Source: Mytilus edulis
Taxonomy: Eukaryota
Direction of reading: 5' to 3'
Length of the DNA stretch: 64,000 nt
NCBI RefSeq assembly: GCF_963676685.1
Contig: NC_092349.1
Span: 31,558,001-31,622,000 of the forward strand
The position numbers and the translations under genes are program-made. Positions 6,879 through 55,411 of the stretch are shown one piece after another. How positions within the stretch are numbered: the first letter of the stretch is position 1; the number at the start of each line of letters is the position of its first letter. The notes under the pieces were generated by a model. It had not been told where the DNA came from and searched no databases. It was given only the letters and a program-made list of their open reading frames with translations.

Positions 6879-7147
6879 TAAAGTGCGGAAGTTTTTCATG
6901 TTTTTCATATATTCCCAAGCTTGTACTGGAGTATCCCTCGATAAAACCAACGAGGACTCGATAACAATTGTTCACTGAGTTGATATCCCTAGTTAATATC
7001 ATGTTAAAACGACTACAATAATATCATTGTTGAAGGCCTTAACGTTATGTGTACCAATTGGTTGGCCGATTCAATGTCAATATTGAAATACAATACACTG
7101 CAGCAACACGTATAGCTGTATACAAGAAAGTTTCCATTTTATTTTAG

Positions 7148-22264: not shown

Positions 22265-23754
22265 TTCCTGAAAATGAAATAAAACAATTTTTTTTCGTTT
22301 TTGTGTCATTGAACTGATAATTTAGTCTGCGTTCAGACCTTTATGTGAAACTGAATATATTTGATGTGGAATATCTGTCTGCCTTCAGACTTATATTTGA
22401 AACTGAATTTCAAAAACTAACATATACAAAGTGAATTTAAAAGCGATCTAGGTAAACGTATGAGTAACCTATTATTTCTGATTATAAGTCGCTGCAAAAG
22501 TTGCTGCTCAAGACAGACCGCTTATGTGTCATCAAACCTAATTTAGTTTGTATGTGACTATTTGTTTTCCCATACCATGTTTTGTTTATTAATTGCATTT
22601 GTTTTGTATCCGTTTTGTTGACACGGATGTTTCTATTTTGTATTTGGTAAACGTCTTAGTATGTGATAATTATCTTAAAAGATCACTAAATTAAGTGATC
22701 TAGAATTGGAGAAAAAAAAATATGAATAGGTAATTATACAGTGTAAATTTTTTTATTAAATTTGAAGGTTTTTGTGAGTTCATATACATGATATACAAGT
22801 TATAAGACTTGATTGTATCATCTTTAAGTCAGTGGTATAAAGTTTTCAAAAACATAGTTTCAATGTGATATTTTTGGAAACATTTATTTAAGGGATCATT
22901 TTATGAATAATGTCGTTTTTTGACGTATGTATTAACATGTATTTAATTCTGGTAATTTCAGATATTCCAAGTTTTTATATATCATCACTATAAGGATTTA
23001 ATCTCATATACATGTAAAGAAAAACTCGTCATCTGTAATGTATGAAAACAAGAATAAAAAATGTTGATCGATGGCATTCTAACTGTGGAAAACACAAAGA
23101 TCTAGACCAGAAAATTGAAACATGAAGCAGTATACAGCTTAGATGTTATTACAAGTTGAAATTGAAAGCAATATTGGTATGTTAGTGTAATACCATTGCT
23201 AATGTATACTCTGCTATGTTTGTTTAGCTTTAAGTGGTGTGAAATAACACTTTCAGAGCGCTTCTTGTTACATCATGGCGGCCAGTTTATATTGGTTTAC
23301 CTAAATTATGGTAACATTGACTAATTGAAATAACATAGAAGAGTTGGAGATGAGAAGATTCATAAATCTTTAATATAATTTTAGGGAAATATTATTCACT
23401 TTCTAAATAGTTATCAAAGATACCAGGATTATAATTCGGTTAGAAGCAAAATACGATAGTCATATATTTATTTTTAGATTCTAACAAAATATTTGGACCA
23501 GATGTGATCCGACATAAAATGCAAAATTGTGTGCTTTTTTCTGGACACAATTCAGAATTTGCTCACCTATCACACTAAAATAATGATAACCTTTTCAAGT
23601 ATTGAAATTTCAGACCTGAATACTAAACATATCCATACAGTATGACTAGCATAACAAGTGCTTTAAAGTTACAACAAGCAAACCCCATAGCGCATAGCTG
23701 ATTGCTTATGGTGGTTTTTACATAACATTAATTGGAGGGAAGCGTCAAGTTATT

Positions 23755-26700
23755 TTTTTTTTTTTTTTTAACAACATAATAATTTTATTCATCAAATATT
23801 GCTTGTTACAAAAACTATCAAGATTCCAAGCTTCTCTTGATGTACCCTGTTACACTCCATTGACTACCCAGGTAATAATCAGCTGATTAGATATACATTT
23901 ATACATTTTATTAGCTATATAGGTACAGTTACTGTAAAATAACATTACTATAAAATTATTCGTATGTTATGTTATTTTGAATTTTTAATAGCATTGGACT
24001 TATTATCTTATCTCTATTTGTGTCTACTCTCTTATTAAATTCATTCACAAAAATTCTATAGACATCTATATTTTTGTTTTCTGTTAAGATACATAGTATG
24101 TCTTATAGATAGAAAAACTAAGTATTGTAATTAAAAAATTGATGGAGAAATACTTATTGTCTGTGATTTTGTACCCAAATATTAGGTGTTGTAGTTTTAT
24201 CACAAAATCTATATTACATCTTATAAGGAGGTCATCTATTTGTTGCCAAAATCTTGTCAAATAAGAACACTTAAAAAAATAATGATTATAGTCTTCTTCT
24301 AGGTTACAAAAATTACACAGATTATTGTTAGTTATTTTCCATTGTGATAGAAGCTTTTTTGTTGGTACAATAAATTGTAGCAGTTTCCATCTGAAAATTT
24401 TTAATTTATTTTCAGTTAAAAGTTTAAAAATAAAATTATACAATGACCTCATATTTGGGGCTTCTTGCATTGATAAAACTTTAAGCCACTTGTTTATCCC
24501 TATTGATGGTTCGTTTATATTGCTCACTAGTGAATCATATAACATTTTATTTGAAAAACATGTAGTCTCAAAATAACGATTTTTCCATGTGATCTTATTT
24601 CTCTGGACATTTACTGTACTTTTAACAGAATTTTCTTTTTTAACAATATGAATCCAATTATGTGGAATAGATTGTTTCAGTTTATGAAATTGAGCAATCC
24701 AGTTTATCTTACTCTTTAATTTTTTTTAAATATTATTTTCTGATATTGACATAGTTTCGTCAAGAATGTCATTTTTATAAAAGTATATTATATCACTCTT
24801 TATCCAGTTTTAAAAAATGATTGGTTCATTATGAAATGTAATGAATTTATTTCCCCATATTATTTGCTTTCTTATATCAAAATATGTGGCTGGTTGTTTT
24901 GTTTGCCCACCCCCAGTCAAAATTCAAGCCTTTATTACTTCCCTATAAAATTCGGGAACATATTTGAAGTATTCTATATGTTTTATATCATTTAAATTCA
25001 TTTTGAATATACACAAAATATAATTTGACACTTTTAGATATTTAAAAGGTATAAGCTTCCAATTGGCAATTTTACCATTAACAAGTCTATATACCCATGA
25101 TGCCTTTAGCGACAAAAAATAACTTTTAAAATCAACCATTTGTAACCCCCCTTTTTCATATGGACGTATTATCAGATTTCTTTTTACTTTGTCAGGCTTC
25201 CCATCCCAAATATATTTAAAGCTTCGTGTTTCTAGTTCTTTAATATAACTTTCGGGAATTATGCAAACGCTTCCCAAGAATGTAAATAAAGGCAAGATAA
25301 GTGTTTTTATAATAAGTATTTTCCCTAAAATTGAAAGATTTCTTTTTTCCCACGTCTTGAACATTTTAATCATTTTTTTTATTTTGCAATCCCAATTTAA
25401 TTTTTTGCATTCCTCTTTATCATGGCCAAAAAAACACCCCTAAAGCTTTGATTGGTTTATCTCCCCAATTAATGCCGGCTATTTTATCTTTACATGATTT
25501 CAACTTCCCAATCCATAATCCTTCTGTTTTATTTCTATTTATCAATAAACCTGAAAACGAACCAAAAATTTCTATTACATTCATTGCAGATACTACATCG
25601 TGTCTATCTTTACAAAATAAGGTTGTGTCATCTGATAATTGCGAGATCTTTATACTATGACTTCTTCCATCTAATTTAACAGTGATTCCTTTTACCTCTT
25701 TGCTATTTCTCAATTTTAGAGCCATAATTTCAACCGCCAAAACAAACAATAAAACTGATAAAGGACAGCCTTGTCGAATTCCCCGTGAATTTTTGAAATT
25801 TTCTGATACCCACCCATTATTCATGACACATGTTTGAACGTCTGTATACATAGTTTTAACCCACTTAATAAATGATTCATTAAAACCAAAATGTTTCAAA
25901 GTTCCAAGCATAAAGTCCTATTCTAACGAATCAAAGGCTTTCGTGAAATCTATAAAAACAATTGCCCCCTCAATTTTGTATGTTTCTGCATAGTCTATAA
26001 CATCTTGGATTTGTCTTAGATTAAACCCAATAAATCTATTTTTAACATAACCAGTTTGATCCTCATTTATAATTTTTGGAAGTACTTTTTTTAAACGTTG
26101 AGCAAGAACATATGACAAAATTTTAAAATCTATATTTAGAAGAGATATTGGACGATAGTTTTCCAAAAGTAAATGGTCCCCCTTTTTGAATATCAAAGTT
26201 AATATACTAGTACGTTGTGAATATGAAAGACTGTTTCTATCGTATCCTGTATTTAAGACATTTACAAGTAATGATTTAAGTTTATTCCAAACCATTCTAT
26301 AAAATTCTACCGTAAGTCCATTAAGACCTGGAGATTTATTTGATTTCATTTTATAGATACCATGTGTGCATTCCTCCAGTGTAACTTTTCCATCACATAA
26401 AAGTTTATCATTTTCATTAACTTTATTTTCTAATTTTGTTTCACTGATATATGTTTCAGTTAAATCTTTGTTTAAACTATTTTTATTATACAAATTTTTA
26501 TAATAATCTTTTATTTTATTAAGGAGCTTCTCTTGATCCGAAATTATTTCCCCATTATCTCCCTTTAACTTACTTATGGATTTTTTTACTTGTCTTCTTT
26601 TTTCTAACCCAAGAAAATAAGAATTATTTTTTTCCCCAAACTCTACCCATTTTTCTCTAGATCTCACTTGAGCTCCTTTCGCCTTTTCTTCGTATATTTT

Positions 26701-26875
26701 ACCTAGCTCTTCTTCAATATCATTTATTTCTTTTTCTATTTCATTATCGTCTCTTATTTTAATTTTTTCTTCCAGGTCTTTCTCCAAAGTAAGTCTTCGC
26801 CCCTTGTTTAACTTTACTTTATTTTTGTCGAGCCTGCAACTTTTGTTGCAGAAAGCTCGACATAGGGATAGTGAT

Positions 26876-26914
<39 letters not shown>

Positions 26915-29353
26915 TTAGCTAACTTCTTAAAAGCTTTATATTTTAGAAGGTGGAAGACCTGGATGCTTCATACTTTGTATATAGATGACTCATGTTACGA
27001 AGTTTCCGTCAGTAACATGCCCAATGTCCTTGACCTCATTTTCATGGTTCAGTGACCACTTGAAAAAAAAGTTCAAATTTTTTGCAATGTTGAATTCTCT
27101 CTTTTTATAAGTAATAGGATAACTATATTTGATATATGCGTACCTTGCAATGTCCTCATGTCTGTCAGACAGTTTTCACTTGACCTCGACCTCATTTCAT
27201 GGATCAATGAACAAGGTTAAGTTTTGGTGGTCAAGTCCATATCTCAGATACTATAAGCAATAGGGCTAGTATATTCAGTGTATGGAAGGACTGTAAGGTG
27301 TACATGTCCAACTGGCAGGTGTCATCTGACCTTGACCTCATTTTCATGGTTCAGTGGTTATAGTTAAATTTTTGTGTTTTGGTCTGTTTTTCTCATACTA
27401 TATGCAATAGGTCTACTATATTTGTTGTATGGAATGATTGTAAGGTGTACATGTCTAGCGGGCAAATTTCATGTGACCTTGACCTCATTTTCATGGTTCA
27501 GTGGTCAAAGTTAAATTTTTGTGTTTTGGTCTGTTTTTCTCATACTATATGCAATAGGTCTACTATATTTGTTGTATGGAACGATTGTAAGGTGTACATG
27601 TCTTGCGGGCAGATGTCATGTGACGTTGACCTCATTTTCATGGTTCAGTGGTCAAAGTTAAGTTTTTAAGTTTTGGTCTTTTTATCTAATACTATATGCC
27701 ATAGGTCAACTATATTTGGTGTATGGAAATATTTTATGATCTTTATGTCAGTCGCACAGGTTTTATTTGACTGTGACCTCATTTTCACGGTTCATTGCAC
27801 AGTGTTAAGTTTTTGTGTTTTGGTCTATTTTTCTTAAACTATAAGTAATAGGTCAACTATATATGTTGTATAGAAGCATTGTTAGCTGTACATGTCTGCC
27901 TGGCATGGTTCATCTGACCTTGACCTCATTTTCAAAGTTCATTGGTCTATGTTTAGTTATCTTGGTTAATGTTAAGTTTATGTGACAGTTGTTATAAAGC
28001 TTAGCTTTATACTAAGGACTATCAACATAATATCAATGATTAGTATAGAAGGCGAGACATTTCAGCGTGTGCACTCTTGTTACAATAATGTGTTGTTACT
28101 TCCCTTACCGCGATTTTAAAACCATCCCATAATAATCTACAATCTAGGTTTTCTTTTTCGAAAACATATGTATCTATCAAATTATTAATCAGTTCTTGGT
28201 AATCTTTATCTTGCAAAACTGAATTATTAATTTTCCAATACCCATTGCCCCTTTCTGATACCCCTGGTTTAAATTTAAGAAATACACTTTGATGATCAGT
28301 GGACCGAATAACAGCCGGTTTAATTTTACAAAATTCTACAAGTGGTAAAAAATCTGACCCCATGAAGATCATGTCAATCCTACTAGCTTGTGATTGGTCT
28401 CTTCTTCTCCATGTGAATTGCTGTTTACATTTATTTAAATTTCTCCAAACATCTGACAGTTTGTTAGTTTTTATCAAATATTTTAAACCGTGTACGGGTT
28501 GCGTAAATTTACATGGACGTTTAGATTTTCTATCAATTGGGTTAAGTGTCTCATTAAAATCGCCTCCAAGTATTGGTATACCTAGACCCTGTTCCTTCAA
28601 ATTATCACTGATTCTTTTGAAAAAAGAATTTCTAGATGTTTTACAGTTAGGTGCATATATACTAATAAATGTAAAAATTGAATTATTTATTTGCACATTG
28701 ATAAGTACAAATCTTCCATCGCTATCAATGAATTTATTAATTAGTTCGTCATGTTCGTAGCTCAGTGATTTCTTAATTAAAATAGCTACACCCCTACTAG
28801 CCGAAGTACCATGACTACAAAAAGTATCATATTCCGTTTTACTATTTATTTCTCTTTCAATAATTTCATCAAAATGAGTTTCTTGTAAAAAAGTTATAAC
28901 GCTTTTTTGAGCCGTAACCCATTCTATAACCCTATTTCTTTTTTCCCGTGAATTAATTCCGTTAACATTGAGACTACATAGATTAATTGTATTTGAAAAT
29001 GTCATAGTTTATAATAGTAAATACATTATAAATATTCTTTGATTTTAACGCACTACATGAAATAACTATTTTATAACACTTAATTGCTACACATTTGAAA
29101 TACATATTGATTATTTTAGATATTATATAGTTGTTACACATATTTTTACAACGTAAATAATAATAACAGGTACCTTTTAGCTGGTGTGACCTTAAACCAA
29201 TTGTTCCGGTATTGAACCTCGTGTATGTTATGTGTACTTTAAAACACGGTGTAATTCTGTTTGGATAATTCGCTAGTGTAGGAATTAATGCATGATAGTT
29301 TAATAATTCCGAATTGTATATATGTGTTTGAATGGAAAAAAATTCGCAAGTAT
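23755..29353 (-). mobile_element. 5'-truncated L1/Tx1-clade LINE (ORF2: APE endonuclease, RT, C-terminal Zn knuckle), inactivated
   Basis: 15-bp TSD aagcgtcaagttatt (23740-23754, 29354-29368) and poly(A) at ~23753-23769 with AATAAA. Motifs LNVNG/LQETH/GGDFN/TDH, RPISLLN, DFTKAFD, RQGCPLS, LSDD, CNFC..EDYNHYFFKC. Contains stops and frameshifts; no ORF1. Confidence 0.93.
26825..28079 (+). mobile_element. HINE family-1 element inserted in LINE ORF2
   Basis: Same structure as 18727-19812 with one extra 147-bp unit and a longer (GGC)n. Removing it restores the ORF2 frame (..THYCKNKVKLNKG..). Inserted in a T-run. Confidence 0.88.
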
Positions 29354-31043
29354 AAGCGTCAAGTTATTGATATTGAGGTACTTAAGTATAGATAGCTATA
29401 TTATATTAAACACAAAGATATTAATTCAAAAAGATAAAGCAATCTTGAAAAAGTTTGATATTAACACTAAAAAGCTTTACAATTGTTCTCCTAAATTTAG
29501 ATTTTTATTAATTTGTTGACACAACAAAATGCTGCAAATAAAACCGGCATGTACAAAAACCCAAGGTAAGTAACCACCTATCAGTGTCATAAGACAGCAA
29601 TACAATGAAGGCAGTATATCATATAGGACTAACAAAACATTTATAAACATGTATGTGTACTAAGTGGAATACCTTAAAAAGTTCGGATATTGTTTAATTT
29701 TCTTTAAAACCTTTCCAATTGTGCTACGAATAGTACGCGTGATTTATAAAAAAAAGTTATACAAAACAAATTAATGCGCACCCATTTTGTTTTTATTTAG
29801 ATAATTATGGAAAAGTCCCTATTGACCCCGAAGACAAGACAAGACAATAGAACTTATTGAATTGAACGAATGTGATATTTTTGTATGCCAAACATGCACT
29901 GAAAATGTTGGAGTAAATAATAGTTCTAATATTTGTCTACGGTGAGATGAACATCTCTATCTTGAATTCGTGAACAATCAGCTATTAAGATCATCGGAGT
30001 AAACCGTACGACAGTACTTTGATTTTATCGTACTATACAAGGAAGTATGATTATAATGGATTTACCTGATTTTTTATATCGTTTTATTTACGCCACATTT
30101 TAAGTATTTTCCTATGTTTCTGACATTTATGCTTACCTTTACTAATTTGTACAGTTTAGCACCATACTGCAGTTATATATTCAAATAATGTTAAAGGAAT
30201 ATCTGCCTTTCCGATGCAATAACCAAACTTCCACTGGTTGACTTGGACTTAAGTCGGGTGACAAAAGGTAGGTAACTTGTGTTTGTTTACTACCTGCTTT
30301 AACCGCATTGATATTGTAAAAGATCAAGCGAAAGAGATATGTATTCCTTTCAAATTTATTCAATGCGATTAGAAATCAATCAATACCATATCTTTATCAC
30401 TCAATGAGGTGGTTATTAACATATAAGTTTATTACTCTATTTACTTTGGAAAGGGTGGTGTGCGTAAAGGGGGCGGGAAGGGGGATGGTGGTTGGTATGG
30501 TTTTTACAAGACAAACATTTTTTTGTTATAGCTTTCATTAAAACAAAATTAACGGTAGAAGGTTTGGTATAAAAATCTGAATTTTTTCGACATATTTTCT
30601 TTTGATATTATTGAGTAAGAAAACCAAAATATTTGAAAATTTCGTAAATTTCAAATGTTCAACCTCGGCAAAGTTTTTTTTTTCATGGTCAATAAACTAT
30701 AATAGCTTTGGCAATTTTTCTGCAGGAATAACACGATACTTTCAACCATTTATATACACCCAGACTACAAATATTAGCATGACATTTCAAATTACTTTTT
30801 AGACATGTATGTTTTTACTACAAATGTTGACATTCATAGATATTCCGAATGGGAAGTCTTTAATACACACAATAATATATGCATACATGTATATTAGTGT
30901 TTTTCACGTTTTTTGGGTACTCAAAAATTGGTAATTATCTATATACTACAGACATAAAACGGTGAATATCAACAAAGTTTTGGCAGATGATACATCAAAC
31001 CCTTCCCTTCCAATGATGAATTTAAAAGAAAAAGAAACAACAG

Positions 31044-31362
31044 GACATTTTTGGTTAACAATTTTTGCATGCCATAAAATTATACACCTGACATTTTTGG
31101 TTAACAATTTTTGCATGCCATATAATTATACACCTGACATTTTTGGTTAACAATTTTTGCATGCCATAAAATTATACACCTGACATTTTTGGTTAACAAT
31201 TTTTGCATGCCATAAAATTATACACCTGACATTTTTGGTTAACATTTTTGCATGCCATAAAATTATACACCTGACATTTTTGGTTAACAATTTTTGCAGG
31301 CCATAAAATGATACACCTGACATTTTTGGTTAACAATTTTTGCAGGCCATAAAAATATACAC
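31044..31362. repeat. 46-bp minisatellite, ~7 copies
   Basis: Unit gacatttttggttaacaatttttgcatgccataaaattatacacct starting at 31044, 31090, 31136, 31182, 31228, 31273, 31319. Confidence 0.95.
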
Positions 31363-31455
31363 CCTCAGTCGAAAAAAACTCAGTGGAAACTTTCAGAAGA
31401 CTAGTTGTATATTTGTTTTTATCGCAAGTGACTGAAGTGTGATTCAGATATTGAT

Positions 31456-33236: not shown

Positions 33237-33639
33237 TTGCCACAGAATCTGGAGGGCGCTTGATCATATTGATGTCTATTCTTCAAACATATCAATAAAT
33301 AAACGAAATAATTTCTTAATTGACTGTACTGTGATTTCATCGTTACATATTTGTATTCCTGTCGTGGTAACAGTTAAAACGAAGTAGAATTTTTCTATAA
33401 GGTTTTAATAAAGTTTGCGAATATCATGAACTCTATTGCCAATATCTCTTCAAAAACATTAGAATAGAATAAGGATAATTTGGTTATTTGATCGGAATTT
33501 GTCATAGAGATTGAAGTGTATGAAGCTAAAGCAATATGACTTTTAGTTTTTTCTACATCTGTTACTTTTTCTTTTGACGTTAAACGAAGTGTAAAGTCTA
33601 CCTGGTACATTTATTGACACTAATTGTCGTTGCTTTATT

Positions 33640-34353: not shown

Positions 34354-34359
34354 TATAAA
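34354..34359 (+). promoter_or_regulatory. Putative TATA box of the cysteine-rich peptide gene
   Basis: TATAAA ~40 nt upstream of ATG 34398. Confidence 0.4.
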
Positions 34360-34397
34360 GTCTTCCTTGTAAATTTATTAACAAGAATTTTGTCAAG

Positions 34398-37300
34398 ATG
34401 AACGCATGCAAAATAATCGCTGTTCTGATTTTGTATTCAATACAACAATCACAGAGTGCCAATATTGGATGGCCCGTGAAATGCAAGGGTAGGATCATTT
34501 TTTAACATCTGTTATTTCATTAGTTTAAAATTGCATGACAAAAATTGGTTTTAATACTTACCAACATCATTGTTTAAGTTTTAAATTGAAATAGCAGAAA
34601 CCACATAATAATTCAACAAAGAAAGTTTTACACGTTTTATTAAGCATTGTGCATTGGCGTTTTTTCTCATTTATGATTAACATATCTCTACCTACCAGAT
34701 TCCGACAGATACCATTACCAAGGTCACGAAATGACCGAAGCATAGAGATGTACAAAATTATCCTAGTTCCGTCAATCTGTATTTCCATCCACAATAAAGG
34801 TGATCTTCGGAATTTATCGTTATGCCTACAGAAATGAGTCTAATTTTGGTACATAAACATACGTCAAAGATTTAAAGTATGACTTATGCTTTCTCATCGA
34901 ATTCTGATTCCTATGCAGAATTATGGCCCTCAAGAATTATCGCAGTTAAAAAAAAAAAATTTTTTAGGCAAAATAATGAATTAATGGTATCAACTCTTTT
35001 AATTTTGTACTTTTAGTGAATTTTATCTTATGCTTGATGATCTGGAGCTGATTTCAATACATCATTGTAAGATAATGACTCACATACAAAATAAGATTTT
35101 TTCTTGTTGACCGACTTTTCATTGGATTGCGCACATTGATTAAGAAAGTTCACGAGAAATCCTCTTGTATTGACAAATTTGCTTGCGTGTCTTAATTGTT
35201 AGATTATCAATGTATAACATTAATGAATTGATAAATTCACTGTGTCCCGACCCGATGTTAGTAATAAAATTGACGGAACAATTGAACCATACGCGGATAT
35301 TGGCTATTCAGTGATGTTCTGGGCAAAAATATGTGAAAAACAAAAGCTTATTTTAAACCAAAGAGTAGAACGGTTAACACATTCGGTCAAGCTGTCTGAG
35401 CTTTACATTAGCGGGATATTACTGATAATATACCAATATATTTATATCATGCCAATTTCAAAGCACAGGATACTTTAATGGTGATAATCTCGAGGACTAA
35501 CTGTCAACCAGTAAAGATTTTCGACCCAGTAAAAATAATAACATTCATTCAACAATAACAATTTACAACTCCAGTTGTGCATTTTGACAATATGTCAGTG
35601 ATGCTCAAGGCCAAAATGTAAAAAAAAAAAAAAAAAAAAAAACACAATTCTTCTCATTCTTATCATGAAAGCTAATTATGAACAAAAAGGGACAAAATTA
35701 TAGCCAAAGACGGACAATGATTTGGAACTTTTCACAAGAACGATAAATCCTTCATGCCTTATGTGACAGAAAGATAGTTTTTTATTTTTTCTAAATAAAT
35801 CAAATTTTCAAATAAATACCGCTATGTCATTAAATATCAAGTCCAACTATTTCGTTGCATCCTTGTTAAAAGTCAATATGTATAATACACAGGATAAGTC
35901 CAAAATATAATACAGCCAAGTTTTGTATTTGTTACATCTTAAAATAAATTGATTGACGGATAATTATACCTAAAACGATCACTATAGCAATATGACATTT
36001 AAATTCCTATCATAAGCAATTCTGTGTTGACTTGAGTTATCATTGATATATTCATAATTATAAATTAACTGTTAACAACACTTTGAATTTTTGAAATACT
36101 AAGGCTTGTGTACCCCAGGAATAGATTACATCAGCTGTTTTTGTGAAAACGTTTAGAAAATTTTAATCCTCAATGCCCTTCAACTTCATATTTTGTTTGG
36201 CTATTTAGCATTTTTTCATTCAAGCATGACTGATGAGTCTGTTGTATACGAACCGTGTGTCTGGCGAAAATATAAAACTTCAATCCTGGTATATCTGATG
36301 AGTTTATTTTCTGAACCTTTTGATATTTAACGAAATATAGAATTATCCTGGTACATTAATTGAAAAAAAAATCGGTCTTCTGAATTTAATTTAAAAAAAC
36401 CGCAACGAGCTTGACTCAGAGGAAACTTTTAGTTAACTAGTTTATGTCTAGTTGGTATAGTTCGTGTCGCTCAGTCCTTAGTTTTTTATGCTGTGTGTAC
36501 TATCATTTGTTTTGTCTTTTTTGTAAGCCATGGCGTTGTCAGTTTATTTCGATCAGTGAGTTTGAATGTAACTCTGTTATCTTTCGCCCCCCTTTTTATC
36601 TCATTAAAGTACGTTAAAGTCAATTAAAACCCTATGTTAACAATTTTCATTTTTCTCGATTGTTAAAGTCATAAGAAACCTCAAATTAAAAAAAAATAAT
36701 GCACATGTTTTTTATGACTCAATGGATAGTTTTCATTATAAAACTTATTTACATATACTTTTTTCTGAAGAAAGAAGTTTACTTTATTTTGATTGCTTCC
36801 TCTCTTCCAGGAAGCAATCTCCCTACATATTTTGCGTATGCAAAGTGACCTCAGCATGACCCATCTCGTAAAAATCCGGTTATCGCAATACGCATGTGTG
36901 TCCTTAAAATAAACTATTATCTGATTGTACATGCATGTTGTTAAACACGTACTCAATAGCCATGCTTTTTATTAATTGTTGACAAACAGATGACAATCGT
37001 TAAACTTCGGCTTCAAAACACGAAATTTATCTGCCATATTTTCACAACAACACTGACCGATTGAAAAAAAAAGTTGACGATTATACGAAATTTATGCGAA
37101 AAAATTTATAAAATCGTGCAAAGAAGACTAAGTTTATGATGTTTGTATGCATTGGTTCAAGATTTTCGTTTATTATGACTTTAAAAATCCATTTTTTTGG
37201 TAAGCGAGTACATTATTTTCAGAAAGCCTGTTTTAAACTAATAAGTATTGATAATTGATCTCGACGAAAATCAAAAATCCAATTTTGTCATTGTATTTTC

Positions 37301-40300
37301 GATCCATATTAATACACACACCGTAAACACAAATATAAAGAATTTTTATAATTGATATATATTTTTGAACATGTAGAATATCTATGTAAACAATCAATAT
37401 AGAAATATGACTGTTATTTTTTTTTTCTACATCTGTCACGAAACTTTTTGATGTGAAACGAAGTATTAAGATATCCTGGTTCATTTATTTGCAGATATTT
37501 TGTCAAGATGTGCGCATGCAAACAATTTTTTCCTGTAATTTTTTATTCAATTCAACAATTGAAGAATCACATATGTATGGTTTTCTAACCTTTTTTCAAA
37601 TTTCTGTTGTTCTGTATATGCAAGGAAAAATGAAATATAAATATTTTTTCTGGAGGTATTTAGAAAAGACTGACGTTGTATTTTATTAAACACCTCGTTT
37701 GTCTAAGTGTATATGGTTTAGGATGTTCAGGATGTTGCGCGTCCAATACCTTACCTTTTCATTTTCTATTTTGAGAAATGTGGGCTGTTGGCAGATCTTA
37801 GTTTGTGTCTGTTAATTTAAAAATCGAAAACTCGGGATTACTTTGGGGTTGATATACTATATAGCTCCATGTGTATTGTTAAATACTTCTTTGCTGTTGT
37901 TGTGTTGATATATACTCTACATGTATTACTTTACAGATATTACCACTTATCCTCTTACTTACTTTTCATACTTATCTATTAACAATGCACAGAACCATTA
38001 TCACACAGATCTCACACAGAACATATACTTTATGCTATGAATGCAAATGTACCTTTACTGACATTTTTCAGGCGCAATGGATTGTGATGTTTGTCCTCCA
38101 CCTGGCATTGGTTTATGTGTAGAACTTGGTGGTTGTCCGACTGGACAACTACTATGTTTTAACGGATGTGGACATACATGTTTCCATCCTGTAAAGGGTA
38201 AGTTTTGAATTCTTAACCATTTAAAACACCCAAATATACTGAGTGCCAATGAAAACGCAACACTTTTGTTTTTCCAAAAAATCTTATAATTTTTATTTTA
38301 TTTATATTAGAACTTTGTATAGTTGGTTGAAAATGACTTTTAAGACAATTTTCGACAACTTTACGGTTGAGTGATTTTTGGAACAAATGCGAAGTAAGGG
38401 TTATTTTGAAAGAACAAAAACCGAGTTCACCGCTTTTCAACATACGCACCATTTTCACGATTTTGTCATTTAAAGCTTGGCTAATGTCATGAATTTTCCT
38501 GCCCTTATTGTTAGGAAACTGCAATAAACAGCTGAGTAAATGACAGGACTTTCCGACAACCAGCGACATGCAGTTTTGGGCATGATCCAATGAAGCCTTT
38601 CACAGTATACAATTACGGGAAGACTGAAGTTGTAGCCTCTACAATAACCCAAAACATCCACAAATTCAACCAAAATGGATCATTTAATGATAAGCCACAT
38701 CCCGGGGTACAAAAAGCAAGAAACGCTCAGCAAGACCGATACATTTGGTCTTTCACATATCCGATATCGACTATGATGGCTGTCCAAATGTCAAAGAGTT
38801 CAATAGTGGCCACGGTACAACCTTTGGAGCCATTCAGTTAAAAGCACTATTTGCGCAGAAATTGTTTAAGAGCACCACAGTCTTTCCTTAGTGACATTTA
38901 AACGGCCGTCTGGCGTAAATATCGAATTCTGTAGACCAAAAAGCATTCATTATGTACAAAAAACGTCAATGGTGGTTACATAGACATTTGGCACCCGCCT
39001 TGGCTAAAAGTCATGCTTTTCGCCGGATTTTGGTCCGATCGACCAAATTTTGCATCAGATTTGACATGTTTTAGACGATGAAAACCACCTCCAATATCAT
39101 AAAGTCAGCTTGCGTTTGCTTTGCGGGACAAGTGGAATAACATTCCTCGGGATCACATTAAACGTCCGGGATGATCAATTCCACGGCGCTGTCGAGATTG
39201 CGCTGCACCACGGGAATGTAACATTTTTTGTTAGGACTGTTAGTTGATGATTCGACATTGGATGTTTCGTTTACCTATTGCGCCCGAAAGATGACAATAA
39301 AACATTTTTGTTTGATATCGATCTATTGTTAAAATAGCTAATTTTCAAGAACAATTTATTTTGAGAGATTATCATTTCTTATATAAATTTTATTTTTGAA
39401 AAACCAAGTGTAGCGTTTTCATTGGCACTCAGTATATTTCCATCATTCACAAGGAGTAAAAGTACAAGAGGAAAACTTTTAACATCGTAGTAAATGAGAA
39501 AACAATAAGATAACAAGAGTACAATACCTAGCAAGATGTTAAAAATAGTATATGTTTTTATACTTGTTCACATAAATAAACTTATCATAGATACCTGGAT
39601 TAAAATTTTATATTTACGCTCGATGCGCGTTTCGTCTACAAAAGAGTACTTCAATCAGTGACGCTCGAATAAAAAAATGTTAAAAAGGCCAAATAAAATA
39701 CGAAGTAAAGAGGACCAAAAGTTCCTAAAAATTTTGCAAAATACAGCTAAAGTTATCTATTCCTGAGGTAGAAAAGCCTTAGTATTTAAAAAAAATCAAA
39801 GTTTTGTTAACAGTTAATTTATGAGAATGAACATATCAATTGTAACTCAAGTCAACACATAAGTGCTGACTACTGGGCTGGTGATACCTTACATAAAGTT
39901 AAGTCCATAGCTATTAATTATGGATTCCCCCGAACAATTATAACATTTCAAAAAGAAAAATGATCAAAAATACCTTACTAGTATTTACAGATGACAAGAG
40001 ATCAAAGTTACTACACAAAAAGAAATGTCGAAAACAGTATACCAAAAATAAATAGATATATAATTTCTTGATTTTCTTAAATATCTCAAAATTCATATGA
40101 AATCTGTGCAAGAAACTAAGATGATGGGTGAATAAAAAATGAATTTCTGAATACAATTATTCAATGCCTTGTGAAAACTATTATTCTCGAAACTATGTTA
40201 ACCGTACTGCCAAACCATCAATTGTAAATTTTCAAACTTTGTTTTTATTCCAAATCCTTTTATATTCACTTGATAGTAGCAACTTGGGTAAATAAAACAT

Positions 40301-40415
40301 TTTGAGTTGTATATTCAACAAGGAAGAAGAAACTTACATAGCCTTACTTCTTTGTATTTTTTCAGTACAGCTTATTTAAACAGTTTGATATTTTTCAGGT
40401 TGTTGTGATAAATAG
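34398..40415 (+). CDS. Predicted secreted cysteine-rich WAP-variant peptide, 77 aa; exons 34398-34488, 38072-38197, 40399-40415
   Basis: Signal-peptide-like exon MNACKIIAVLILYSIQQSQSA ending in a phase-1 donor. Symmetric phase-1 exon with branch point CTGAC, ttttcag acceptor and gtaagt donor, encoding CPPPGIGLCVEL..CPTGQLLCFNGCGHTC. Last exon GCCDK* followed by AATAAA. Confidence 0.65.
37508..37574 (+). other. Diverged duplicate of exon 1 of the WAP-variant gene (alternative or decayed first exon)
   Basis: ttttgtcaagATG.gcgcatgcaaa...tattcaat.caacaat is shared with 34388-34450; phase-1 gtatgg donor. Confidence 0.5.
38237..39434 (+). mobile_element. Degenerate Tc1/mariner transposon in an intron
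   Basis: TIRs tactgagtgccaatgaaaacgc.acactt with TA flanks. Remnant GSFNDKPHPG...QDRYI and a decayed WP..SPD..PI-like segment near 39000-39050. Confidence 0.8.
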
Positions 40416-40839
40416 TGTGATGATGGATCTGAAGAATAAATTGAAGAAATATAAAATACGGCTACAGACTTCAGAGATTAAAAAATAATAAATTGATTAT
40501 CAATTTCTTCCTTTTGATTCTTATTTGATATTTCCATTTACACACACATTTACCATATACATTGTTTCGATTTTCTAGTTTGAAACATATTGAATCAGGA
40601 GTATCTTGTATCAGTTCAAGATCTGTTTTTCACTAATATACAAAATAGTTGTATAAACAAATGAACCTTGTCAACAACTAATTTTTCAAAATGTTTCAGT
40701 GTTTTGATACAAAAAATTAAATGCAACCAGGGCTAATTCATGATTACTTATATTTGATAATTCCTGCATGATCACCCTAAATTTGATGACCTTTCCACGT
40801 TAAATAATAAAGGAAAATAAAAGACAGACGATAGGTAAA

Positions 40840-45095: not shown

Positions 45096-45355
45096 CTGCC
45101 CTCCGTCAAAATAGAATTTCGTCTCGAAATTTAAACAACTACGAAATATTAAATCAATTTATACAATCAAACAAAGTCAAGTTAAACAAGCACCTGCTGC
45201 TGAATATTAAAATTAAGAAAATTTGGTTTTTTTTTCTAAATCACGAATAACCTTATATCACGATTCATGACACGTGTAATGGTAAAATTGTACCAACGGC
45301 ATACAAAACAATATACATATAAATAATGTCAACAAATTTCTGAATTTGTGTCTTT

Positions 45356-46501
45356 TCAGTATAATAAATCTTGTAATGTATCTTGTGTTCTTTCTCCTTC
45401 TGTATCCTCTACTGCTCTTTTCTTCCTTTTTCTCCAATCTTTTCGTGTGTCTTGAGTTACATGTTTTTCATTCTCAAGTTCTTTCTGAGTTTGGTTTAAA
45501 TCTGTGTTACGGAACCTATCTTTCAGTTGACTATTTTTTTCCTTCTGACAGAACTGGTTTCCGTCTTCTTCTGTAACAGGAACATTTTCATCTGTAACAC
45601 TTAAATTATCTTCTGTAACATGTTGCAAAAGTTCAGGCAACATTTGGACATCGACCTTGTCCGTCTGATTACCCTTATAACTTGCACTTGTAATATTTCC
45701 TATATATTCACACATGTCTTGCGTACTTGCTACCATGGGTTCTCTGTCATCTGCCATTACCGGCTCTTCTATTGAATCTCTGGTTGACAGGAACTCACTT
45801 CTTTCCGCTTCTTTGTAAATGACTAGCCCAGAATTGGTGTCCTTTTCTCCGACTCTGGCTACTTTCATTTCATCAATTAGGTCACATCCTAATAACATGT
45901 TCTCTTCAATGGGCGCTACATGAACTGGCCATTTGAATGTTTCACTCCTCAGATTAACTTTCACCTCTGTAATCCCTTCTGTTGTCAAGTTCTTTCCGGC
46001 CTCAGCAACTTCTAATTTTCTTGCTGCTCTCCTTAGTTTTGGCCGTTTACTTTCAGGAATCTGATCATACAACTTCTCACTTAGAACAGTCACCTCCGCT
46101 CCAGTGTCAATAACTGTATTCATCACAATCTTGTTAATGACCACTGGAACTGCAATGCTAGCTGCTGTCACCCGATCAATGATAACATTCTCTTCTATCC
46201 TGCTGGTCGTTTCTGCACTACCCATTACCTCCTTTGGTGTGTTCTCTGGTGTGTTCTGTTGTATCTCCTTACACTCCTCAAACAACATCTCTAGGCTTAA
46301 ATCTAGGTCCTGTATATCTAGGCTATCTTCTTCAAATGATCTCTTTATAGAAACTGTACCCACTGATGTTTTCGGTTCAACCAAATGCTCTTTCATTTGA
46401 CAAGGTTTCTCTTCATCTTTTAAATTATTCTCTTTAACTATTTCTTTATTATGTTTAGGGGCTGACACTTGGTCGATAGTCTCAACCCTTAGCAGTTTAA
46501 A
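45356..46501 (-). CDS. Retropepsin-like aspartic protease ORF (-1 frame to gag) fused to a low-complexity acidic tail
   Basis: VIDTGAEVTVLS and MLLGCDLI motifs; the frame is open back to the TTTAAAC slippery site. Confidence 0.8.
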   Translation of the reverse strand, partial: FKLLRVETIDQVSAPKHNKEIVKENNLKDEEKPCQMKEHLVEPKTSVGTVSIKRSFEEDSLDIQDLDLSLEMLFEECKEIQQNTPENTPKEVMGSAETTSRIEENVIIDRVTAASIAVPVVINKIVMNTVIDTGAEVTVLSEKLYDQIPESKRPKLRRAARKLEVAEAGKNLTTEGITEVKVNLRSETFKWPVHVAPIEENMLLGCDLIDEMKVARVGEKDTNSGLVIYKEAERSEFLSTRDSIEEPVMADDREPMVASTQDMCEYIGNITSASYKGNQTDKVDVQMLPELLQHVTEDNLSVTDENVPVTEEDGNQFCQKEKNSQLKDRFRNTDLNQTQKELENEKHVTQDTRKDWRKRKKRAVEDTEGERTQDTLQDLLY

Positions 46502-48284
46502 GACTCTTCAGTTTGGTTTTGACTCCTTTCATCATTCCTTATAAAACCACTTCTGTTTTCTTTATGATAGGGGCTTCTCTTTTCTTTTGGACAATCTCTT
46601 ATGTAATGGCCATCCTCATTACAGTTAAAACATCTGCGATTCTTCATCTTGGTCGTATGGTCTCTATACACTTGCTTATTATGCCATGCACTACTGTCAT
46701 AATCTTGTGGTGCATTATACTTTGCCATTTCTGTTTGAATAACTTTCTCTAGTGACTGGGCGATGGACTGGGTGATGGAGTTTTTCATCCCTCTTTCAAA
46801 TTGTGTAAGCCTCTCCTCAGTTACATATCTTTTCCCACCAACTTTCCTTATTTCAATATCATCTTCACCTTCATCTAAATCAACAGTTTCTTGCATATTC
46901 AGCTGACGGATCTTTTATATGTTTCATATAAAGTCACCTGGTGGATAGCTTCAGTCATACTGGTAATCCTCTTTGTCAGTAATTCTATAGCAATGCTCTG
47001 GTCGGACAATCCTCTCAACATGTACTCCACACTCAATGTACTGTGAGTGGCTACGTCAATAGTAGGAAATGACCGTCTGACTAGCATTTCTACTCTGGAA
47101 GCATATTCATGGATGTTTTCTTTGCCCTGTTTCCTTAATGTGTGCAATTCTTGTCTATATGTCTCTGGATAACCATGGTCACCAAATATATTCGACATAG
47201 CTGCAAATAGCCCAAAGAAAGATCTTTTGGTCTCTGGTGAGAGGTAGGAAGCATAAACCATTGCCTCATCTTTCAGTGCGGTTACTAATTCAATGGCTTT
47301 AGTATAAGAATCCCATCTGTTGATCTCTGCAATAAGTTCAAATTACATAAAATAGGCATTCCAGGGATCTCTGCCGTTGTAAAATGGCACTCTGTTTCTT
47401 CTCCCATTGTCTATATTGGAGTTTTCATAATTATGGTGCTGTTGCTGTGGTCTGCCATACTGTTGCCTAGGTAACCAGTTTGGTACTGAGGAATTGTTTG
47501 GATACTGCTGGTAGTCTGGACGTTGCTGGATTTCAGGCATGACTGTACTCGTACAAGAATAGTTTGGACGATGCTGGATCTCAGGTATTGTCGTATTTGC
47601 ATAGACATATGATGGTTATTGCTGGGTCTCTGACAATGTTGTATCCATGTATGTGTGTGTAGAACGTTGCAGGGTGTCTGGCAATGTTGTGTTATTATAG
47701 GAGTAGGTTGGACGTTGCTGGGTCTCTGGCAATGTTATACTATTGCAGGAGTTTGTGGAACGTTGCTGGGTCTCTGACAATCTTATATTATGACAGGAGT
47801 TTGTTGAACGTTGCTGGGTTTCATAACTATTTTGACTGCTGATAACAGGGTCAGATTTCATCTGAGGGAAATATTGAGCATTGTTTTTCATCTGAAGGTT
47901 TTCATTTCTTAATGCCTCTATTTCTTGTCTCATCTGTATTTTTTCATCACTCTCACATGATTTGTCTTTTGTTATAGTCGCTCTTGCACTATCACTCTTA
48001 CTTTGAGTTGGGAAAAGAAATGGGTTTGTGCTTACTTCTCTTTGAATATTATTCGCAGTTCTACTAAATGGCATGGGGCTTGTATTTATCTCCTTCTGGT
48101 TTAAACTAATAGCCTGGTTTGAGGCTAAATAATTATGAGAAGTGACATCACCAAATGAGCAGGTATCAATATTTATAGATGCAACAGACCAAGTGGGAAT
48201 GATTGGACTAGCTAATGTGGTAATTCCCCTACTTAGTGAATTGGACCCCTGTGGTATACGAGATCTGTCTCTTGAATTATACAT
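46489..48284 (-). pseudogene. gag: gag, with 20-aa N-terminal repeats, capsid-like region and CCHC zinc knuckle
   Basis: ORF pieces 47616-48284, 47343-47540 and 46899-47261 are one frame broken by TAA stops. Frameshift near 46900-46915; CFNCNEDGHYIRDC. Confidence 0.8.
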
Positions 48285-48329
48285 TTTACTTTTAATTGCT
48301 AAATGGAATCAAGAGTTTCAATTTACTAA

Positions 48330-52195: not shown

Positions 52196-55100
52196 ATGGC
52201 AGAGTTTAAATTAGACACAGGACAAACTTTAGAAGAAGGTATATTTTTTATACATTAAATAATTTAAGCAACGTTTAAATAATACATAAAAGTAAGAGCT
52301 GTTTGCGTTATATATATATTTAGATTTCTTCAAGGTAAATTTTCAAATGAGACAAGTACGGAAAGCAACTTCTGACTTATAACATTTGATGCGACCTATT
52401 GCAAATTGGGATTTCTGCATTACTTCTTTCATCGGAAAAGTTCGTCAAATATGCTCTCCTTAGTTTATCGTGTTTATAACATCACATACCAGAAGCATGA
52501 AGTAGATTCGTGACGAGTTTTTGTGAAAGTCATTGTGTAGAATCATCTAGAAATAATGTTCATGATGTTTCCCTAACGACTTTAGTGCAAATTAACAATT
52601 ATAAATATTCAATTGTAAGAATATGTCATGCAATACAGTATCTCAGCGTTTTATTTCTTTGTTAAAGGCAGTGGTCATATTCTACTGAAAGACATGCCAA
52701 GAAATCCTCGCTTAAAATTCCGGTCGACCTCCTACGGCAGTCATTAGTAGCTAAAGATTTGATTTCATTCAAGAAATTAATTTATGACCTTCATGTACGT
52801 GTCGCTGAGAACACGGTCATATACCAAATGGTCAATATTAATCATCCATGTAATTTGCTCTATGGGGTGTTTGCAGAATTTCAACGGATGCAATTTCTTG
52901 GCATGATGCTCACAGCATGGGCGTTGTTAACCTGTTTAATAACGAGCGTTAAAATGTTACTACATGTTTTTCATCATTATCAGAATACATATACTCTTTA
53001 ATTGGTATAATAAGGATTGACCTATACTATGATTACATTATGGGGAAAAGTAAGTTAAGGTTCATCATAACAAATTGACAAATGTGGCCGAATTTTAACT
53101 AAAAAATTCACTAGTACTCTGTGTGCAGACTTACCTGTGCAATTTGGAAAGTATTAAGGTCTAGCATCCACTAGATATATAAAAGTTAAATGTATTTTGC
53201 ATATCAGAAAGATGAATTTTTTTTTGGATTTTATTGGGCATTTTTTTCACTTCCTGTAGAAGGTGTAAAAATAAACTAAGTTGGGATATAACTTTTAGAT
53301 GCTCCCTCTCAGGTAAAAACTGGTTTGTCTTGTATTGATTGTCCTTGATACATATTATATTTAAACTACTTGGCATGGACAATAGATATCTTCACATTTA
53401 TAGTGAGTTAATCTGAGTGGACAGTATCAAAGTAATCCAGGTGTTTGTTTATTTTTACATCTTCTGCAGTAGGGAAAAAAAATGCCCATCAAAATCCAAA
53501 AACGATTTCATCTTTTGGGAGCATAAAAAGCATTTAACTTTCATATATCTAGTGGATGCCAGGCCTTAAAACTTTCCAAACTTCACAGGTAAGTTTGTAC
53601 ACTGAGTAGTTTTAGAGGTGAAAATACGGCCATATTTGTCCATTTATTGTGATGAACCTTAAATACGACCAACGCAATTCGTTGTAATATTCTTCTCTCT
53701 TAAGAAGTCTTTTAATACTACACTTTTCCTTTCAGATAATCCACCAACATCTAACAAATATTGTGGTCCATGTGAAACCAGACTTGTGACGACAGCGCCA
53801 CAGTATTGGTGTAACTCTTGTGAAGAAGGTTTGTGTGCAGAATGTTTCGAGCACCACAAAGCCATTAAGGCATCTAGAAGTCACATAACTGTAGATTTTA
53901 CAAAATTCATGAAACTTAAACCGTTTATATCAACTATCGACACGGAATGTAAGATCCATGACCTTCCATTTGAACTTTATTGCCCTAATCATGAAGCGAC
54001 TTGCTGCTCCTTTTGTGCAACTATGGATCATTCTACATGTTTAGGATTAAAATCTCTACCAAATGTTGTGGCATCATTTAGGGAGTCAGAATATCTAAAT
54101 TGTCTGGACGAGAGATTTGATGTTTTAGTAAATAATATCGACAAAGTAATCGAAAATCGTGAAAGAAATAAAGAAAAAATTAGTAATCAGTCTAAAAAAA
54201 GTCGATCAGATATACAAATTTTAAGAAAAGAAATCAATAAGCATTTAGATAATTTAGAGAGCCAACTTGCTACACAGAGTGACATAATTATTGAAGACGC
54301 AAATGAAAAACTTGAGAATTTCCTGCAGAGGTTAAAAGAAAAGAAACGCAACGTGAATGTTCTTAGGAACAACTTCTCAGAATTGAATAAAGGTGGATCT
54401 AATCTACAAGTATTTATATCCAGCAAGATGATAGATAACACACTTTCCGAATTAGATGAGACGTTGAACTCCGCAATGACAGAAGATAATATGTCAGAAT
54501 TGAATTTAAAATTTACGTTAGACCCCTACCTGAAAGATACAATCACTCAGCTTTTAGAAGTTCGTCTTCAGAAGAACAAACCTACCGTTATATTAGACTC
54601 ATCCACAAAACTCACTTGTCAAATTGTTTCAGAGGATGTTTACAAGATGACTGCAGTTCACAAAAGTAGTTTTGATAAATCCGCGTTCAATGAAACATCA
54701 AATATTACTTGTATTACTTCTTTGCTACCAGACGGAAAATTAGTAGTTGCCGATTATGGCTCTTCTTCGATATTGGTATTCAGTACAGAAGGAAGCATTG
54801 TCAAAACTGTTAGGTTTAAAAAGTCATCCCGGCTTTTTGGAGTAACATACGTTGTCAAAGATCGTATAGCGGTTTCCTTTCCAAGTAGCGAAAAAATTAA
54901 AATATTAGATACAATGGAATACAAGGAGTTGAAAGAAATACAATTAAACAAACCATGCTGGGGTATACATTCTGTAGATGACCTGATATATGTAGCAATC
55001 AGAAGCACTGAAATTTTAGTTCTAAATTTAGCAGGCAAAATTGTCAAAACTATACAAGCAAATCAACAGAACTTGATTTATTTGTGTTTATTCGAAGACC

Positions 55101-55411
55101 TACATTTTCTTTCTGAAATTGAAGAGGGATGCGTATGTTGCTACAATTTCGCTGGTTGTAAATTGTGGCAGTTTAAAAATGAAACAACAACAGGCGCAAG
55201 AAACATGTGTGCCGACTCGCATGGAAATTTATTTGTGGCCTGTCAAAATTCTAATAGTGTTGTGTTGATTTCAAATGATGGTAAACAAAGCAAAGTGGTG
55301 GTGAATGTTTCGGAACCTAAGAGTGTCTATTTCGATACGAAAAATTCTACTTTATATGTTTGCAGTCTTCACGGTGATCACTTTTCCTCTTACAAAATAC
55401 TCAACCGATAA
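52196..55411 (+). CDS. RING-less TRIM-like protein: B-box1, B-box2, coiled coil, NHL-like propeller; predicted exons 52196-52238 and 53736-55411
   Basis: Large open exon after the cttttcctttcag acceptor with CGPC..WCNSCEEGLC, B-box2, coiled coil and propeller repeats. The upstream phase-1 exon MAEFKLDTGQTLEE (caaATGG context, AAG|gtata) is inferred with lower certainty. Confidence 0.88.
53059..53658. mobile_element. TTAA-flanked MITE with ~190-bp TIRs (Kolobok-type termini)
   Basis: TTAA at 53055-53058 and 53659-53662; GGTTCATCA.../...TGATGAACC with long inverted arms. Confidence 0.8.

What the first reader, a model, noticed from the sequence alone, without database searches (positions are those of the whole stretch)
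34398..40415. Hidden secreted peptide gene with a rewired WAP disulfide core
Absent from the ORF track. Predicted product: MNACKIIAVLILYSIQQSQSANIGWPVKCKGAMDCDVCPPPGIGLCVELGGCPTGQLLCFNGCGHTCFHPVKGCCDK. Against the WAP four-disulfide core (C1-C6, C2-C7, C3-C5, C4-C8), exactly C3 and C5, a bonded pair, are missing and the loop between C2 and C4 is shortened. Two extra N-terminal and two C-terminal cysteines give an even 10 in the mature peptide. Inference: coordinated loss points to a functional three-disulfide WAP variant, possibly an antimicrobial, protease-inhibitor or shell-matrix peptide.
Basis: partly seen in the sequence, partly recalled or inferred. Interest (0 to 1): 0.7.

Follow-up and report, generated by a model that had tools for sequence, protein, structure and literature searches.

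The report
Mussel peptide with trimmed WAP core
A three-exon mussel gene, spliced in public sequence assemblies, encodes a predicted secreted 57-residue peptide whose WAP domain lacks its third and fifth cysteines, a trimmed form we found only in Mytilus; it likely acts as a small binding or defence peptide, but its job is untested.

Summary
The gene is real. Contigs of 2 of 6 runs laid join all three exons without a mismatch. Exon 2 derives from a WAP domain and lacks exactly C3 and C5. The pattern holds in a tandem paralog and in M. galloprovincialis and M. coruscus records, and in 0 of 353 other full-length WAP domains retrieved. New here: 2 of 6 runs splice a different upstream exon (ends 30267) without a signal peptide onto exon 2, and no database record gives the complete secreted peptide. 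Six-cysteine WAP domains are already known from whipworms and shrimp crustins (C2/C7 lost), so this is a new variant of a known kind. The peptide is about neutral and lacks the elafin loop spacing, so it is probably neither a membrane-lysing antimicrobial nor an elafin-type inhibitor. Fold models were weak; disulfide pairing, tissue and function are untested.

The parts
34354..34359 (+). TATA-like box, 28 nt before the 5' end of the longest spliced contig
   Evidence: sequence; contig of X4 begins at 34387; promoter role inferred, contig ends do not prove a start site
34398..34488 (+). Coding exon 1: predicted signal peptide (codons 1-20) and start of the mature peptide with extra Cys29
   Evidence: joined to exon 2 in X4 and X9; 29 of 30 residues identical in M. 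coruscus record P0002
34489..38071 (+). Intron 1, 3583 nt, GT..AG, phase 1
38072..38197 (+). Exon 2: extra Cys35 plus WAP-derived core with C1, C2, C4, C6, C7, C8 (Cys38, 46, 52, 59, 63, 67); C3 and C5 absent
   Evidence: Pfam WAP 14.8 bits, E 0.035, below cut-off 20.8; alignments; column census
38198..40398 (+). Intron 2, 2201 nt, GT..AG, phase 1
40399..40505 (+). Exon 3: last five codons with Cys74-Cys75, stop at 40413-40415, 3' UTR to at least 40505; AATAAA at 40435 and 40487
30197..30267 (+). Alternative upstream exon spliced onto exon 2, giving a form without signal peptide; 3' end shown, 5' border inferred from P0001
   Evidence: loose ends of X1 and X14 match 30236-30265 exactly, once in the window and once in the genome; GT donor at 30268; hydropathy peak 1.16 against 2.86
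29549..29565 (+). Probable first coding piece of the alternative form (ATG to GT donor)
   Evidence: inferred: with 30197-30267 it gives 27 of 29 residues of the N-terminus of M. galloprovincialis record P0001; not seen directly in a contig
37388..37559 (+). Degenerate duplicate of promoter and exon 1 inside intron 1 (72% identical); stop codon in the paralog's copy
   Evidence: no contig covered it as its own exon in 6 runs, which proves nothing
33497..33625 (+). Degenerate duplicate of the promoter region only (72% identical)

Best explanation
This is an intact, spliced Mytilus gene for a predicted secreted 57-residue peptide, descended from a single WAP-domain exon that lost cysteines 3 and 5, which likely folds as a three-disulfide WAP core stapled by two more disulfides and likely works outside the cell by binding a protein or microbial surface in defence rather than by lysing membranes. 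Shown: gene model, splicing, WAP descent, missing C3 and C5, spread in Mytilus, a second form without signal peptide. From established knowledge (recalled): WAP pairs C1-C6, C2-C7, C3-C5, C4-C8. Inferred: secretion (about 0.9); the core keeps Cys38-59, 46-63, 52-67 while Cys29, 35, 74, 75 pair among themselves and tie the two ends together, making up for the lost bond (about 0.65); non-lytic binding role in defence (about 0.4). The leaderless form is most likely a by-product of transcription from an element that flanks each neighbouring B-box gene (about 0.65).
For: Splicing: X4 and X9 join all three exons with no mismatch; they carry two different organism codes and two studies. No intronless copy in the genome. 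WAP descent: only Pfam hit; best PDB sequence hit nawaprin, E 0.083; 24 hits among 1.84 billion representatives, 2 of this family, 1 unrelated repeat protein, 19 eight-cysteine WAP proteins among the 20 read, 2 not read; top two Foldseek rows omwaprin and 6atu, the entry that names elafin, though not significant. Paired loss: 4 of 357 full-length domains lack C3+C5, all of this family; 336 have all eight. The six-cysteine rows form one clade, 98/95. Kept under divergence: paralog B intact with all 11 Cys; M. coruscus P0002 70 of 72 identical against 102 of 116 for the adjoining B-box part of the same record, Fisher p 0.03; P0003 keeps the six with 4 of 43 residues changed. Charge -0.1, pI 6.9. 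[quoted passage not shown]
Against: No tissue, induction or activity data. AlphaFold models are weak (pLDDT 50.8 and 64.5), give no significant Foldseek or VIA match and neither held all ten cysteines. Between copies A and B amino-acid divergence (pN 0.028) equals intron divergence (0.026); 5 replacement and 3 silent changes, p 0.38, so no purifying selection is shown for that pair. Copy C is truncated. High identity across species is unlike the hypervariable mussel CRP-I peptides (PMC4558851, abstract start), which weakens a defence role. WAP proteins also occur in mussel shell (PMC3896809, PMC5854119, passages). [quoted passage not shown] No run laid is on record as RNA by its library field; the case rests on the joints.
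Confidence: 0.45

Rival explanations
1. An atypical protease inhibitor: the loop behind C2, freed from the C3-C5 bond, still binds a protease of mussel or microbial origin.
For: C2-C7, which anchors the contact region in elafin-type inhibitors, is kept (PMC9680087 places the contact region around C2). Whipworm six-cysteine WAP proteins are classed with MEROPS I17 by similarity (PMC5012510). The charge is near neutral.
Against: Inhibitory WAP domains have 6 and 8 residues between C1-C2 and C2-C3 (PMC11408880) and usually a Met in the loop; here 7 residues, no C3, no Met in the loop, and only 5 residues to C4.
Confidence: 0.2
2. A shell or byssus matrix peptide that binds mineral or cross-links into matrix, like perlwapin.
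For: WAP domains occur in Mytilus shell proteins (PMC3896809, PMC5854119). Strong conservation between species suits a structural partner. A terminal Cys-Cys could cross-link.
Against: M. galloprovincialis perlwapin has three WAP domains with conserved cysteines; this is one trimmed domain with three acidic residues plus one near the end. No tissue evidence either way.
Confidence: 0.15
3. The ten cysteines are re-paired into a fold that is no longer WAP-like; the extra cysteines take over partners inside the core.
For: No significant structural match to solved WAP domains; Pfam score under the cut-off.
Against: Spacings C4-C6, C6-C7 and C7-C8 equal the canonical ones; the model keeps the C-terminal hairpin; Atlas models align best to WAP domains, TM 0.53-0.57, under its own bar. 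Eight-cysteine relatives also carry an extra cysteine before C1 (P0014, P0015, L007).
Confidence: 0.13
4. A decaying duplicate with residual transcription and no function.
For: Copy C is broken; A against B shows no constraint; 2 of 6 runs carry a form that cannot be secreted; the region is a tandem array with transposon insertions.
Against: Intact frame, splice sites and all cysteines in copies A and B and in the matching parts of records of two named species; loss is of a pair, whereas two other WAP domains of this genome lost single cysteines (L059, L064).
Confidence: 0.07

Closest known systems
WAP four-disulfide core domain (Pfam PF00095; elafin, SLPI, nawaprin 1udk, omwaprin 3ngg)
   Same: C1, C2, C4, C6, C7, C8 in register, Cys-Pro at C1 and the GCG motif at C7, single phase-1 exon, predicted signal peptide
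   Different: C3 and C5 absent, C2-C4 stretch 5 instead of mostly 9 residues, no K-x-G before C1 and no D-x-D-C, four extra cysteines at the ends; Pfam score below cut-off
Six-cysteine WAP (SLPI-like) proteins of Trichuris and Trichinella, e.g. Tm-WAP49 (PMC5012510, PMC6130879; passages read)
   Same: WAP domain with exactly six cysteines, mostly secreted
   Different: 1-10 repeats per protein; their logos are aligned on the CXXDXXC motif, which by my reading holds C3 and C4, so the lost pair is probably not C3-C5 (inferred from the legend; the figure could not be seen)
Crustins with atypical WAP domain, Litopenaeus vannamei Ia-1, Ia-9, III-1 (PMC7401287, passages read)
   Same: Secreted single-WAP peptides that lost two cysteines together; type I crustins also carry four extra cysteines
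   Different: They lost C2 and C7; their four extra cysteines all lie before the domain; crustins are described as cationic; no sequence relationship shown
Short-loop eight-cysteine WAP peptides of invertebrates (Actinia tenebrosa XP_031567773 = P0009; P0014; own-genome locus L007)
   Same: Nearest sequences, 56-64% identical over the core; shortened C2-C4 loop; some have an extra cysteine before C1; weakly grouped in the tree, 90/81
   Different: All keep C3 and C5; no sister lineage could be resolved
Perlwapin-like protein of Mytilus galloprovincialis (P86855; PMC3896809, passages read)
   Same: Secreted mussel WAP protein
   Different: Three WAP domains, shell matrix; not compared by sequence here
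Database records VDI07685.1 (M. galloprovincialis, P0001), CAC5358017.1 (M. coruscus 'WFDC3', P0002) and P0003 (M. coruscus)
   Same: The same gene family, 90-98% identical over exon 2
   Different: P0001 has the leaderless N-terminus; P0002 has the signal exon but runs on into a B-box gene in place of exon 3; P0003 hangs exon 2 on a B-box protein; none gives the complete secreted peptide

Membership tests
WAP four-disulfide core (WFDC, PF00095) | Eight conserved cysteines forming four disulfides | tested here: not met
   six of eight columns; 3 and 5 missing
WAP four-disulfide core (WFDC, PF00095) | Pfam gathering score 20.8 bits | tested here: not met
   14.8 bits, E 0.035, profile 5-41 of 41, exon 2 alone
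WAP four-disulfide core (WFDC, PF00095) | Descent from the family (sequence homology, cysteine register) | tested here: met
   matches a WAP profile built here over C1-C8
WAP four-disulfide core (WFDC, PF00095) | WAP fold (central beta sheet with outer loops) | tested here: inconclusive
   pLDDT 64.5 with a hairpin at 26-29/34-37; Foldseek top rows omwaprin and 6atu at E about 5; VIA none
WAP four-disulfide core (WFDC, PF00095) | Disulfide pairing C1-C6, C2-C7, C4-C8 in the remaining core | not testable with these tools
   pairing recalled, not from a call; the fold tool returns no bonds
Elafin/SLPI-type protease inhibitors (MEROPS I17) | 6 and 8 residues between C1-C2 and C2-C3; Met in the contact loop | tested here: not met
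   7 residues, no C3, no Met in the loop (rule from PMC11408880 and PMC9680087)
Elafin/SLPI-type protease inhibitors (MEROPS I17) | Protease inhibition | not testable with these tools
   needs an assay
Crustins / cationic WAP antimicrobial peptides | Cationic mature peptide with complete C-terminal WAP domain; 12-cysteine signature in types I, II, V | tested here: not met
   net charge -0.1, pI 6.9, 10 cysteines split over both ends (definitions)
Six-cysteine WAP of Trichuris/Trichinella | Six cysteines with central CXXDXXC motif | tested here: not met
   six cysteines, but no CXXDXXC between C2 and C4; sequences not compared
Perlwapin (shell matrix WAP) | Three WAP domains, presence in shell matrix | tested here: not met
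   one trimmed domain (definition); presence in shell not testable
Secreted peptide | Cleavable signal peptide | tested here: inconclusive
   Lys5, hydrophobic core 3-12 (peak 2.86), small residues at -3/-1 before residue 21; SignalP not available

The most novel reading that the evidence does not exclude
Mytilus has rebuilt the WAP scaffold: the internal C3-C5 bond and its loop were traded for two end-to-end staples, giving a five-disulfide peptide type not described before, and the gene switches between a secreted form and a leaderless intracellular form through an upstream promoter shared back-to-back with the neighbouring B-box (TRIM-like) gene.
Probability: 0.15. Interest if true: 0.65.

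Novelty: new variant of a known kind. Interest (0 to 1): 0.4.

Why it matters
It adds an unnamed, conserved cysteine-rich peptide to the mussel secretome that all three database models get wrong or incomplete, so proteomic searches would miss its true N- or C-terminus. It is a natural test of which WAP disulfide is dispensable: described reduced domains lost C2-C7 (shrimp crustins), this one C3-C5. A 57-residue, ten-cysteine peptide can be synthesised and mapped directly. The importance is modest: reduced WAP domains are known and no function is shown.

Tried and rejected
No RNA holder listed: none of 24 runs is on record as RNA; not used for or against. Run X20 covers exon 2 unspliced at depth 2: DNA or pre-mRNA, uninformative. 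Contig depths cannot rank expression. The 37522-38071 joint in X18 (26 letters, 80% setting, ends CA..CA) is read as true exon 1 matching its degenerate copy, because exon 1 was outside the stretch laid; inferred. Folding: two AlphaFold jobs (P0001 with 20 rows; exon 2 with 31 rows) were weak; the complete mature peptide was not folded. Foldseek and VIA gave nothing significant. Atlas hits were all under 0.9: leads only. Metagenome scan: 4 loci of 183 stretches, three eight-cysteine WAP exons and one chance hit; no orthologue outside Mytilus. Word searches found only P0001-P0003; small unannotated orthologues in other mytilids would be missed. A hit resembling the signal exon near L007 was chance. 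The tree could not name a sister (28 of 48 inner branches open, bootstrap unsettled). A genome-wide pattern for a C5-less core gave copies A and B and one stop-containing chance hit, with 9 control matches; it covers only GCG-type domains. Accession search in papers: 0. No complex prediction was sent: no partner is proposed. The C1-C6, C2-C7, C3-C5, C4-C8 pairing was not found in a passage and is recalled.
Full report
Observation. The window is AT-rich animal DNA from a 1.37-Gb genome, G000:C6; the nearest named proteins are from Mytilus. The leader has a basic residue, a hydrophobic core (peak 2.86 over 9 residues) and small residues at -3/-1 before residue 21; the 57-residue remainder has ten cysteines, about 5.85 kDa, net charge -0.1. 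SignalP could not be run.

Expression. Of 24 runs listed for exon 2, 20 hold at least half of its words; none is on record as RNA, so the case rests on joints. I laid 6 of them. X4 and X9 each have one contig through all three exons with no differing letter, skipping 3583 and 2201 nt. X14 bridges intron 2 with 36 letters, X1 with 22, and X18 runs on into exon 3 letters. X20 is unspliced at depth 2. The genome has no intronless copy, so the joined forms are best read as cDNA. They come from two organism codes.

A second first exon. In X1 and X14 (two studies) the 122 letters before exon 2 are not exon 1. The 30 shown match 30236-30265 exactly, once in the window and once in the genome, followed by a GT donor at 30268. 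The M. galloprovincialis record P0001 has this N-terminus, 27 of 29 residues equal to the window's 29549-29565 plus 30197-30267. It has no hydrophobic leader. Its exact start is unresolved: only 30 of 122 letters were visible. Homologues of this element stand on the 5' side of all 5 minus-strand B-box genes found in the array, also where no peptide exon follows, and the start codon is not kept in all. I therefore read the leaderless form as likely read-through from the B-box genes' promoter region; this is inference.

Family. Two more copies lie 96 and 120 kb upstream. Copy B is intact; copy C lacks the signal exon nearby and has lost C8 and the donor. Protein searches of 5.8 billion clusters gave three relatives, all Mytilus. 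P0002 (M. coruscus) matches residues 1-72 at 70 positions and then runs into a B-box gene; that B-box part matches the window's at 102 of 116, p 0.03, a rough baseline since the neighbour may evolve fast. Against this, copies A and B differ by 5 replacement and 3 silent changes, pN 0.028 against 0.026 in intron 1, so constraint is not shown for that pair.

Relation to WAP. Exon 2 hits only Pfam WAP, at 14.8 bits, below the cut-off. HMMER over 1.84 billion representatives gave 24 hits; of the 22 outside the family I read 20: 19 are eight-cysteine WAP proteins and one an unrelated repeat protein. Alignments place the six core cysteines on C1, C2, C4, C6, C7, C8; C5 is replaced by Leu and C3 falls in a gap. 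In a column census of 385 domains from the 147 proteins held plus exon 2, 28 were partial; of 357 full-length ones 336 had all eight, 4 lacked C3+C5 (all this family), 1 lacked C2+C7 and 16 lacked or misaligned one. That set is biased towards canonical domains (best 120 of 922 hits, plus earlier hits). In the genome 28 of the 30 best of 79 WAP matches have eight cysteines and 2 have seven. Short loops are not unique: an Actinia peptide and others have 7 residues between C2 and C4 with C3 kept, and some carry an extra cysteine before C1. The five six-cysteine rows form one clade (98/95) inside a weakly supported short-loop group. That C3 and C5 are bonded partners is recalled knowledge; joint loss of C2 and C7 in crustins fits the same scheme.

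Structure. Neither model held the complete mature peptide. P0001 gave pLDDT 50.8; exon 2 gave 64.5 with a C-terminal hairpin. Foldseek ranked omwaprin and 6atu first at E about 5; VIA found nothing. The fold is therefore compatible with WAP, not shown.

How it likely works. Secretion by the leader; oxidative folding into a three-disulfide core; Cys29, 35, 74 and 75 pairing among themselves to tie the ends. The elafin-type loop needs 6 and 8 residues between C1-C2-C3 (PMC11408880, passages) and usually a Met (PMC9680087, passages); neither is met. Antimicrobial WAP peptides rely on cationic and hydrophobic residues there; this peptide is neutral. [quoted passage not shown] This step is inferred and weak; protease inhibition and shell or byssus matrix (PMC3896809, PMC5854119, passages) remain open.

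What is known. Six-cysteine WAP domains were described in Trichuris and Trichinella with unknown effect on function (PMC5012510, passages and a supplement search of 12 of 14 files that did not name the pair; Supplementary Fig. 5 could not be seen and bears on this; PMC6130879, passages). Three shrimp crustins lost C2 and C7 (PMC7401287, passages). A review's list of mussel antimicrobial families holds one with ten cysteines, myticusin, at 104 residues (PMC10608444, passages). PMC6697025 names a WAP protein in a haemocyte table without sequence. I found no paper on this peptide or on a C3-C5 loss in ten searches; the library lacks most subscription journals. An unreviewed note of this scan (e1-9819242) says a shortened six-cysteine module also occurs in other mussel, bird and mammal proteins; it does not state the pair and I could not test it, so the C3-C5 loss may be less rare than my census suggests. 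Note e1-9839753 gives C2-C7 as the pair lost in an arthropod family and in whipworms; the legend I read is compatible.

Verdict. Observation confirmed; interpretation partly supported. A real, conserved Mytilus peptide gene, WAP-derived but failing the four-disulfide definition, with an unexpected leaderless second form. New variant of a known kind; interest 0.4.

Noticed in passing
window 7087-8052 (+), 14481-16150 (-), 20606-22321 (-), 53663-55411 (+); G000:C6:31,470,409-31,491,119: Tandem array of B-box (TRIM-like) genes around the peptide gene. All 5 minus-strand copies found have a homologue of the 30150-30300 element 1.3-7.8 kb on their 5' side, with or without a peptide exon behind it; it may be their promoter or first exon.
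   Followed up: partly
G000:C6:31,496,614-31,501,297 (L015) and 31,475,992-31,476,958 (L016): Copy B is intact (5 residue changes, all cysteines kept). Copy C has no signal exon nearby and a 24-nt deletion that removes C8 and the exon 2 donor.
   Followed up: yes
window about 23755-29400 (-): LINE-type element (endonuclease and reverse transcriptase frames by eye, with stops and an alanine-codon run) between the B-box gene and the alternative exons; the other units of the array match only its flanks, so the insertion looks recent.
   Followed up: partly
window about 45350-48300 (-): Broken LTR-retrotransposon-like gag and aspartyl protease frames (Pfam PF13975, PF00077).
   Followed up: no
window 31003-31409: 46-bp tandem repeat, absent as an array from copy C.
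   Followed up: no
L018:7405-7557 (G000:C6 near 49,057,400): Cationic eight-cysteine WAP exon with short loops and extra cysteines on both sides, same chromosome, phase 1 borders; its other exons were not found.
   Followed up: partly
L051 (G000:C11 near 38,210,800) and L057 (C11 near 30,653,900): A full WAP domain followed in frame by tandem repeats of only its second half (the C5-C8 part), an odd four-cysteine repeat.
   Followed up: no
L059, L064: Two WAP domains of this genome lack a single cysteine (C7 and C1), leaving an unpaired partner.
   Followed up: no
P0002, P0003: Two M. coruscus database proteins join the peptide exons to neighbouring B-box genes; probably gene-prediction fusions, not tested against reads.
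   Followed up: partly
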